Source: a virus. Taken from it: 64,000 nucleotides of DNA. The stretch spans positions 10,688 to 74,687 of IMG/VR virus record IMGVR_UViG_3300048593_000672. One strand, 5' to 3'. Shown in pieces: positions 63,829 to 63,948 of the stretch (within the stretch, counting starts at the first letter, position 1; every line of letters starts with the position of its first letter). The notes beneath the pieces are model-generated. The model saw nothing but the letters and a program-made list of their open reading frames with translations, made no database searches and had not been told where the DNA came from. The translations under genes and the position numbers were made by a program.

Positions 63829-63876
63829 CATAGCCAATTGGTAAGGCAGATGTCGGCAAAATCGGTCACACACTTA

Positions 63877-63948
63877 AGGCGGCACCCAGATTTGAACTGG
63901 GGAATGGAGGTTTTGCAGACCTCTGCCTTACCACTTGGCTATGCCGCC
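63877..63948 (-). tRNA. trnC: tRNA-Cys(GCA), probable attachment site
   Basis: GGCGGCA acceptor, loop CTGCAAA, TTCAAAT, U discriminator. Confidence 0.97.

What the first reader, a model, noticed from the sequence alone, without database searches (positions are those of the whole stretch)
63829..63943. Inverted copy of the tRNA-Cys 5' half between the tRNA and integrase
Seen: 63829-63861 CATAGCCAATTGGTAAGGCAGATGTCGGCAAAA is a 30/33 inverted match to 63911-63943 (D arm through anticodon). A minus-strand tRNA read-through transcript could form a 33-bp duplex ending 24 nt before the int ATG. Known: att duplications are normally direct repeats of the tRNA 3' part; lambda sib controls int by integration-dependent RNA structure. 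Inference: if the 5' half is host-derived, the duplex exists only when integrated, an integration-state switch silencing int or tuning tRNA-Cys.
Basis: partly seen in the sequence, partly recalled or inferred. Interest (0 to 1): 0.76.

Follow-up and report, generated by a model that had tools for sequence, protein, structure and literature searches.

The report
Phage-borne inverted tRNA-Cys half in attP
A temperate cyanobacterial phage that inserts into the tRNA-Cys gene carries, just in front of its integrase gene, an upside-down copy of the half of the tRNA it does not replace, so a long hairpin with the tRNA can exist only in the integrated state; whether that hairpin is used as a switch is not shown.

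Summary
In detail: 63829-63861 is a 30/33 inverted match to 63911-63943, and no shuffle reproduces it.

The window is the right end of a ~74-kb prophage. It is bounded by a perfect 48-bp direct repeat covering tRNA-Cys positions 28-72 plus 3 nt, so crossover lies in or next to the anticodon loop.

The inverted copy (tRNA positions 6-38) lies inside the phage.

Two relatives carry the copy in the unintegrated attP form:
- An IMG/VR phage with 88% integrase identity.
- A 70% relative, inferred by back-translating an over-long gene call.

Twenty-one more distant relatives lack the copy. Fourteen of the 19 examined instead have a classical hairpin terminator after their tRNA. This clade has none.

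A conserved promoter-like site on the far side of attP points through the core into int. Integration would therefore disconnect int from it, as with Pcirc of ICEclc.

My leading reading (about 0.37) is a lysogen-only RNA structure that insulates int from tRNA read-through. Close rivals are a protein-binding site in the P arm and a decaying relic. No RNA data were available.

The parts
63829..63861 (+). Phage-borne inverted copy of tRNA-Cys positions 6-38. It reads as tRNA sense on the + strand and as antisense on the int/tRNA strand.
   Evidence: 30/33 match to the tRNA. It lies inside the prophage, 12 nt from the att core. It is present in the attP form of L105 and inferred in P0002.
63877..63948 (-). 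tRNA-Cys(GCA), rebuilt by integration: positions 1-27 from the host, 28-72 identical in phage and host.
   Evidence: ARAGORN; Rfam RF00005, 66.4 bits; boundary from the 48-bp repeat.
63874..63921 (.). Right copy of the 48-bp perfect att direct repeat (tRNA positions 28-72 plus 3 nt). The left copy is at contig 213-260, outside the window.
   Evidence: Exact 48-nt identity with no extension on either side. L105 joins the two prophage ends through a single core.
63922..63948 (-). Host-derived 5' part of the tRNA. Positions 6-27 form most of the partner arm of the inverted repeat.
   Evidence: It lies outside the direct repeat. In metagenome X3, unitigs of the host flank have depth 48-58 against 12.3 for the prophage.
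63862..63873 (.). 12-nt spacer between the copy and the core. L105 has about 109 nt here; P0002 has about 16 nt.
   Evidence: Alignments.
63806..63828 (-). Two tandem arm-type-like repeats (TTTAAGCCA, period 11) between the copy and the int ATG.
   Evidence: D1. Identical in L105. Two more copies lie in the other arm at contig 319-339. The equivalent tandem TTTAG[GT]C repeats sit just before int in 19 relatives.
62759..63805 (-). Tyrosine integrase, 348 aa, of a cyanobacterial family.
   Evidence: PHROG 1 integrase, E = 6e-15; weak PF00589; 119 homologues; invariant R213, K237, R293, H316, Y325.
63966..63994 (-). Promoter-like site of the host tRNA-Cys gene (GTGCCA-17-TATAAT).
   Evidence: 10/12 consensus match ending about 18 nt upstream of the tRNA 5' end. 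This is a consensus scan only.

Best explanation
What it is (shown): the copy is part of the P arm of attP of a ~74-kb temperate cyanophage. The phage's tyrosine integrase recombines in or next to the anticodon loop of tRNA-Cys. The copy is phage DNA, is ancestral to a small clade (this prophage, L105, P0002), and is present before integration.

How it most likely works (inferred): in the circular phage, int is transcribed from a promoter in the other arm (P'), through the core and the copy. Integration cuts that promoter off and puts int directly behind the host tRNA-Cys gene, with no classical terminator in between. Only then does the transcript contain both the host tRNA 5' half and its phage-borne antisense. 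These fold into a roughly 30-bp duplex that attenuates, or marks for cleavage, read-through into int. On this reading it is a conditional substitute for the hairpin terminator that other family members place after their tRNA. A fixed terminator at that place would block int expression in the circular form.
For: - Prophage limits and core.
- L105 is collinear with both prophage ends through one core, so it is the attP form, and it carries the copy directly upstream of identical arm repeats.
- P0002's gene call starts in the core. Its back-translated P arm matches the tRNA antisense at the same offset (20/32 informative positions; 8 of 2000 shuffles reach this).
- int has diverged to dS 0.78, with 35% difference at 4-fold sites. 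The D-arm part of the copy differs at only 2/22 positions and the spacer is unalignable.
- P'-arm promoter-like site: TTTACG-17-TATAAT in this phage and TTTACA-17-TATAGT in L105, both 10/12 and both pointing at the core and int.
- 14 of 19 relatives have a hairpin of -15 to -34 kcal/mol with a T tail 12-68 nt after the tRNA. This phage and L105 have none. The copy sits at offset 16-48.
- Folding: the duplex becomes the MFE once 105 nt are transcribed and reaches 30 pairs at 120 nt.
- No conserved int promoter was found in the P arm.
Against: - No transcript data: no RNA run holds the stretch.
- The tail after the duplex (AUUUAAGC) is a weak U tract, and the int AUG is not sequestered.
- The 5' arm would already be folded into the cloverleaf. 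Sampled cyanobacterial genomes have a single tRNA-Cys gene, so efficient duplex formation would cost the host.
- G15>T, shared by two phages, weakens pairing but creates the palindrome CCAATTGG.
- None of the copy's changes is wobble-compatible.
- L105 has about 97 extra nt between the tRNA and the copy, and a T run right after the tRNA.
- Conservation of the D-arm part is not significant against the neighbouring P' arm (24% divergent; P = 0.06).
- Only three related phages are known, one of them inferred from protein alone.
- Promoters and terminators are consensus predictions.
Confidence: 0.37

Rival explanations
1. DNA-level element of attP. The copy is kept as protein-binding DNA in the P arm: an accessory integrase half-site mimicking the B arm of attB, an extra inverted arm-type-like site, or another regulatory site of int. 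The inverted repeat with the tRNA would then be a by-product without RNA function.
For: - The copy's position is fixed relative to the arm repeats and the int ATG (0-2 nt), not relative to the core (12 against about 109 nt).
- The block 63786-63850 has 2 differences in 65 nt against 16% on average.
- The segment shared by all three copies, GAC[A/C]TCTGCC, is the antisense of the anticodon-stem 5' strand, which is the expected B-type core half-site.
- The shared G15>T makes AGCCAATT, identical to the P' arm-type site.
- In relatives, the place just upstream of the tandem repeats holds a second set of short repeats.
Against: - It does not explain why the sequence should derive from the tRNA.
- The motif resemblances are post hoc (rough chance 0.05-0.07 each).
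- The arm-type motif TTTAG[GT]C is family-wide and independent of the tRNA target.
- It does not explain the missing terminator.
- No binding data exist.
Confidence: 0.3
2. A relic. A one-off inverted duplication or capture of the tRNA 5' half in an ancestral lysogen, carried along in attP and slowly decaying, with no selected function.
For: - Absent from 21 more distant relatives, including three at tRNA-Cys.
- The layout was not found in viral, genome or metagenome collections.
- Each copy has decayed at its own positions: 3, 6 and at least 6 mismatches to the tRNA. The anticodon part differs at 5/11 between this phage and L105.
- No mismatch is wobble-type.
Against: - The copy survives in three phages whose integrases are only 70-88% identical and whose 4-fold sites differ by 35%. 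The adjacent spacer has diverged beyond alignment.
- The D-arm part differs at 2/22 (P = 0.006 at the 4-fold rate).
- The indel separating this phage from L105 ends at the copy's edge.
Confidence: 0.25
3. [quoted passage not shown]
For: L089 shows a cyanobacterial element with a 17-nt inverted piece of tRNA-Cys next to CRISPR-like repeats and a Cas12k/TnpB-like ORF end. The published background is PMC11656645.
Against: There is no CRISPR repeat, tracr-like RNA or Cas/TnpB gene beside the copy. Rfam finds only the tRNA. The recombinase is a classical tyrosine integrase with core identity and arm repeats.
Confidence: 0.03

Closest known systems
tRNA-targeting prophages and islands with tyrosine integrases, anticodon-loop sublocation (own knowledge: Williams 2002 NAR; Islander database, PMC4383910)
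   Same: There is a tyrosine integrase next to the rebuilt tRNA. The direct repeat runs from the tRNA 3' end to the anticodon stem, the displaced 3' fragment marks the far end, and arm-type repeats lie in both arms.
   Different: attP also carries an inverted copy of the part of the tRNA that the element does not replace. I found no description of this and no other instance outside the clade.
Phage lambda sib retroregulation of int (own knowledge)
   Same: An RNA structure affecting int whose presence depends on whether attP is intact or split by integration.
   Different: sib lies 3' of int, forms in the unintegrated genome and is removed by integration. Here the structure would lie 5' of int, form only after integration, and use host RNA (the tRNA 5' half) as one arm. 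RNase III dependence is untested.
Pcirc of ICEclc (PMC5812530)
   Same: A promoter at the far end faces outward in the integrated state and is fused upstream of the integrase gene only when the ends are joined.
   Different: Here it is only a conserved consensus match in two phages. ICEclc also has its own Pint next to the integrase gene. No conserved int promoter is seen here, and nothing like the tRNA antisense is described for ICEclc in that review.
Intrinsic terminators placed after the rebuilt tRNA in other members of this integrase family
   Same: They occupy the same place (12-68 nt after the tRNA, before the repeats and int) and presumably do the same job of stopping tRNA read-through.
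   Different: Those are self-contained GC-rich hairpins with T tails. Here one arm would be the tRNA itself, so the hairpin depends on integration.
Delocalised crRNA of type V-K CAST (PMC11656645; example L089)
   Same: A mobile element of cyanobacteria that carries an inverted piece of tRNA-Cys near its tRNA-proximal end.
   Different: There the piece is a 17-nt spacer beside a CRISPR repeat and is used by Cas12k for homing. Here there is no repeat and no Cas gene.

Membership tests
Tyrosine-integrase prophage at a tRNA gene | Tyrosine recombinase with the catalytic residues | tested here: met
   PHROG 1 integrase, E = 6e-15. R213, K237, R293, H316 and Y325 are invariant in 39 homologues. The local PF00589 match is below its cut-off.
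Tyrosine-integrase prophage at a tRNA gene | Direct repeat of the tRNA 3' part at both ends of the element, with the intact tRNA at the int end | tested here: met
   48/48 identity between window 63874-63921 and contig 213-260.
Tyrosine-integrase prophage at a tRNA gene | A joined attP form exists | tested here: met
   L105 is collinear with contig 215-1074 and 73477-74541 through one core. P0002's gene call starts at the same core boundary.
Tyrosine-integrase prophage at a tRNA gene | Empty attB exists in the host population | tested here: inconclusive
   In X3, unitigs of the host flank have depth 48-58 against 12.3 for the phage, and one unitig joins the left flank to the core. No contig spanning an empty site was seen. 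The flank homologues in G244 and G070 are not next to tRNA-Cys.
lambda sib-type retroregulation | Structure lies 3' of int and is separated from int by integration | tested here: not met
   The copy is 5' of int and the duplex needs integration.
lambda sib-type retroregulation | RNase III cleavage of the duplex leading to int mRNA decay | not testable with these tools
   No RNA run holds the stretch.
Pcirc-type promoter disconnection (ICEclc) | Outward-facing promoter at the far end, fused to int on circularisation | tested here: inconclusive
   A 10/12 consensus site in the same place and orientation in this phage (contig 314-286) and in L105 (1256-1284). Its activity is not tested.
Intrinsic terminator after the tRNA (family habit) | Self-contained stable hairpin followed by a T-rich tail between the tRNA and int | tested here: not met
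   Best local hairpin is -2.6 kcal/mol in this phage and -11.6 (non-canonical) in L105, against -15 to -34 in 14 of 19 relatives. The consensus scan finds none.
Type V-K CAST homing guide | CRISPR repeat beside the tRNA-matching spacer, with Cas12k and Tns genes | tested here: not met
   No repeat lies next to the copy. Rfam finds only the tRNA. The neighbouring gene is the integrase.
Serine-integrase elements with an inverted spare attP (earlier notes of this scan) | Large serine recombinase and an inverted copy of the whole attP | tested here: not met
   The recombinase is a tyrosine integrase. The copy is of the host-side arm of attB, not of attP.

The most novel reading that the evidence does not exclude
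The phage carries the antisense of the host-only half of its split target tRNA as a sensor of its own integration state. Only in the lysogen are both arms co-transcribed from the tRNA promoter, and the resulting long duplex shuts off read-through into int (and possibly trims tRNA-Cys output). In the circular phage the same DNA lets int be transcribed across attP. This would be a conditional terminator or insulator built from a host gene fragment.
Probability: 0.3. Interest if true: 0.75.

Novelty: new variant of a known kind. Interest (0 to 1): 0.5.

Why it matters
Temperate phages must express integrase at infection and keep it quiet in the lysogen. Known solutions are sib in lambda and promoter fusion in ICEclc. 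If the copy works as proposed, it would be a third solution and a very economical one. The element would detect integration by pairing its own RNA with the host half of the gene it split, and so could do without a fixed terminator that would block expression in the circular form.

Even if the pairing has no function, the case shows that attP can hold a conserved mimic of the host-side arm of attB. That bears on how integrases of this cyanobacterial family recognise their sites. It also documents the attP layout of a family with no characterised member that I could find. For integrated relatives that layout is tRNA, terminator, repeat set 1, tandem arm repeats, int.

Tried and rejected
P0002's P arm was read only through its over-long gene call.
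- Pattern scans for the inverted D-arm layout found nothing in viral, genome or metagenome contigs.
- A scan for the copy plus arm site found only L105's contig and a chance hit in Chryseobacterium, which has no tRNA there.
- tblastn against GenBank phages gave no match.
- No RNA holder is listed for the stretch. Contigs of four lake metagenomes show only near-identical copies.
- The covariation test is impossible. The tRNA-Cys 5' half was the same in all 84 of 401 sampled cyanobacterial genomes that had a match, one copy each.
- The promoter-like site inside the copy (CCGACA-18-TATGAT, 9/12) is not conserved in L105 or P0002 and was rejected as the explanation.
- TACCAATTGGC is only mildly enriched in the window (7 against 1.65 expected) and was not pursued.
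- I considered integrase-mediated inversion, wrong-orientation recombination, fold-back repair and template switching as origins. None gives this layout (5' half inverted beyond the 3' end) in one step, so the origin is left open.
- The CAST-guide reading was rejected (see rival explanations).
- A literature search on attP, tRNA and inverted repeats found no precedent.

Full report
**1. The observation**

The window ends with tRNA-Cys(GCA) on the minus strand at 63877-63948. A 348-aa tyrosine integrase gene follows on the same strand at 62759-63805. Between them, 63829-63861 is a 30/33 inverted match to 63911-63943. No shuffle of the window gives any such match. On the + strand the copy reads as tRNA positions 6-38 (raw numbering). 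It differs from the tRNA at G15>T, G28>T and U32>G. A transcript running from the tRNA into int is predicted to fold into the long duplex rather than the cloverleaf: -58.8 kcal/mol, z = -6.6. The arms alone give -46.2 kcal/mol, against -29.4 for the tRNA alone. The duplex becomes the minimum-energy fold as soon as 105 nt are made.

**2. Where the element ends**

The record is a single 74,687-nt virus contig, and the window is contig 10688-74687. Window 63874-63921 is repeated exactly at contig 213-260: 48 nt with no extension on either side. This stretch is tRNA positions 28-72 plus 3 nt. Four conclusions follow.
- The element is a ~74-kb prophage.
- Crossover lies in or next to the anticodon loop.
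- tRNA positions 1-27 are host DNA.
- The inverted copy, 12 nt inside the right repeat, is phage DNA.

Metagenome contigs agree. In run X3 the unitigs holding the host flanks have depth 48-58, against 12.3 for the prophage, and one unitig joins the left flank to the core. The prophage is therefore present in only part of the host population.

**3. The closest relative is in the attP form and has the copy**

A profile search of IMG/VR found L105, whose integrase is 88% identical in protein and 84% in DNA. L105 positions 495-1354 are collinear with the left prophage end. Positions 1452-2519 are collinear with the right end. The two are joined through one core that starts at the same tRNA position 28, and there is no tRNA 5' half. 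This is the unintegrated arrangement, and it confirms the limits given above.

L105 carries GCAGACCTCTGCCTTACCAATTGGC directly upstream of the same two TTTAAGCCA repeats and the int ATG. That sequence is the antisense of tRNA positions 10-34, with the same G15>T change. Its core holds a different host's tRNA-Cys 3' half. About 97 extra nt separate the core from the copy.

**4. A third member, read through a gene call**

P0002 has 70% integrase identity. Its 393-aa gene call begins M-VCKISTPGSNPGAA, which is the reading of tRNA-Cys positions 29-71. The start codon in front of it means tRNA identity again stops at position 28, so this is also an attP form.

The next 24 residues back-translate to a short P arm of about 72 nt, as in the window. 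FTDIC corresponds to TTY ACN GAY ATH TGY, against TTT GCC GAC ATC TGC here. Against the antisense of the tRNA 5' half, 20 of 32 informative positions agree, at offset 17 nt after the tRNA end (16 in the window). Only 8 of 2000 shuffles reach that score.

So the copy is shared by three phages. The short arm is probably ancestral and L105 probably has an insertion.

**5. How conserved is the copy?**

Between the window and L105, int has dS 0.78 and 35% difference at 4-fold sites. The other regions compare as follows.

| Region | Differences |
|---|---|
| Arm repeats | 0/23 |
| D-arm part of the copy | 2/22 |
| Anticodon part of the copy | 5/11 |
| P' arm (non-coding) | 13/54 |

For the D-arm part, P = 0.006 at the 4-fold rate and 0.06 at the P'-arm rate. 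The spacer between core and copy cannot be aligned in any pair.

This argues for some constraint, but not decisively. The tRNA 5' half was identical in all 84 of 401 sampled cyanobacterial genomes that had a match, one copy each, so covariation with the target cannot be tested.

**6. The wider family**

Twenty-one more distant relatives (33-45% identity) sit behind tRNA-Lys, Met, Glu, Thr, His, Phe, Leu or Cys. None has an inverted copy of its tRNA. Nineteen of these were read in full, and they share one layout:
- the tRNA;
- a strong hairpin with a T-rich tail 12-68 nt downstream, in 14 of 19 (-15 to -34 kcal/mol);
- a set of short repeats with a period of about 10;
- two tandem TTTAG[GT]C repeats with a period of 11-12;
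- then int.

The window and L105 have the tandem repeats but no such hairpin. In the window and in P0002, the copy occupies the place where relatives have the terminator.

**7. A second, simpler switch**

There is a promoter-like site between a 158-aa HTH-like gene (contig 315-791, minus strand) and the core. It reads TTTACG-17-TATAAT in this phage and TTTACA-17-TATAGT in L105. Both are 10/12 matches and both point through the core at int.

In the circular phage this site would drive int across attP. In the prophage it faces outward into the host flank, and int is left behind the tRNA. This is the logic described for Pcirc of ICEclc (PMC5812530). No conserved int promoter was found in the P arm. 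The 9/12 match inside the copy is not conserved.

**8. Reading**

*Shown:* the repeat is real. The copy is phage-borne, part of attP, and shared by a small clade. The full duplex needs integration. The clade lacks the family's terminator.

*Inferred, and my leading explanation (about 0.37):* the copy gives a lysogen-only RNA structure that limits read-through from the tRNA promoter into int. A fixed terminator cannot do this job here, because it would also block transcription across attP in the circular form.

*Against it:*
- There are no RNA data.
- The U tract is weak and the AUG is left free.
- The cloverleaf forms first.
- There would be a cost to what is probably the host's only tRNA-Cys gene.
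- A central mismatch is conserved in two phages.
- None of the changes is wobble-type.
- L105 has a 97-nt insertion.

*Rivals:*
- A protein-binding element of the P arm (0.30). Its position is fixed relative to the arm repeats, and the segment common to all three copies is the expected B-type half-site.
- A decaying relic (0.25).
- A CAST-like guide, which I reject. That reading was prompted by L089, where a V-K CAST-like element carries a 17-nt inverted piece of tRNA-Cys beside CRISPR-like repeats.

**9. Novelty**

The system as a whole is an ordinary kind: a tRNA-targeting tyrosine-integrase prophage. The inverted mimic of the host-side arm of attB inside attP was not found described. It was also not found elsewhere in the collections searched. 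I file it as a new variant of a known kind. Interest is moderate, because the function is unproven and the clade is small.

Noticed in passing
L089 (G007:C74:1229-4261), about 215 nt downstream of its tRNA-Cys: A perfect 17-nt inverted piece of tRNA-Cys (TTTGCAGACCTCTGCCT) lies directly beside three CRISPR-like repeats (CTTTCAACCC...) and the end of a Cas12k/TnpB-like ORF. It looks like a type V-K CAST with its tRNA-homing delocalised crRNA.
   Followed up: partly
Contig 286-314 (outside the window; L081 286-314, minus strand): A conserved promoter-like site (TTTACG-17-TATAAT) in the P' arm. In the prophage it points outward through the displaced tRNA fragment toward a host gene whose ribosome-binding site is at contig 1-12. 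Read-out transcription of a host gene by the prophage is possible.
   Followed up: partly
L001-L080, 12-140 nt downstream of the tRNA in 19 loci: This cyanobacterial integrase family has a regular P-arm layout: tRNA, strong terminator hairpin, 2-4 repeats of period about 10, two tandem TTTAG[GT]C repeats of period 11-12, then the int start. The second repeat set does not depend on which tRNA is targeted.
   Followed up: partly
L105 1355-1451: A roughly 97-nt segment between the core and the copy is absent from the window. It holds two 21-nt direct repeats (ATTTGTCRTCAGTAACRGATT, 50 nt apart) and a T run right after the tRNA end. The 9-mer GTCACACAC occurs there in the opposite orientation to the window's spacer (GTGTGTGAC); this is possibly chance.
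   Followed up: no
Contig 315-791 (L081, minus strand): A 158-aa HTH-like ORF with no Pfam match. Its last codons contain the two P'-arm TT[TC]AAGCCA repeats. The spacer of the P' promoter holds GGGGTTGTCAAGCTCCCC, a member of the TTGACAAC family noted by another first-stage finding.
   Followed up: no
Window 62700-64000 in lake-water metagenomes X2-X5: The prophage end occurs nearly unchanged in lake metagenomes from many studies (20 runs listed, 18 studies). In X3 its depth is about a quarter of that of the host flanks, so the prophage is polymorphic in the host population.
   Followed up: partly
Contig 3-169 against L099 and L100: The host flank left of the prophage is 83-84% identical to a region in two cyanobacterial genomes (G244, G070). 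There it is not next to tRNA-Cys, and similarity ends at GGAATTGCTG. The host species itself was not identified.
   Followed up: partly
L105 1449-1473 against window 63837-63861 and P0002: The anticodon-stem part of the copy is canonical (tRNA-like) in L105. In the window and in the more distant P0002 it carries the same G28>T state. This suggests either reversion or gene conversion against the host tRNA in L105's lineage, or exchange of attP modules between phages.
   Followed up: no
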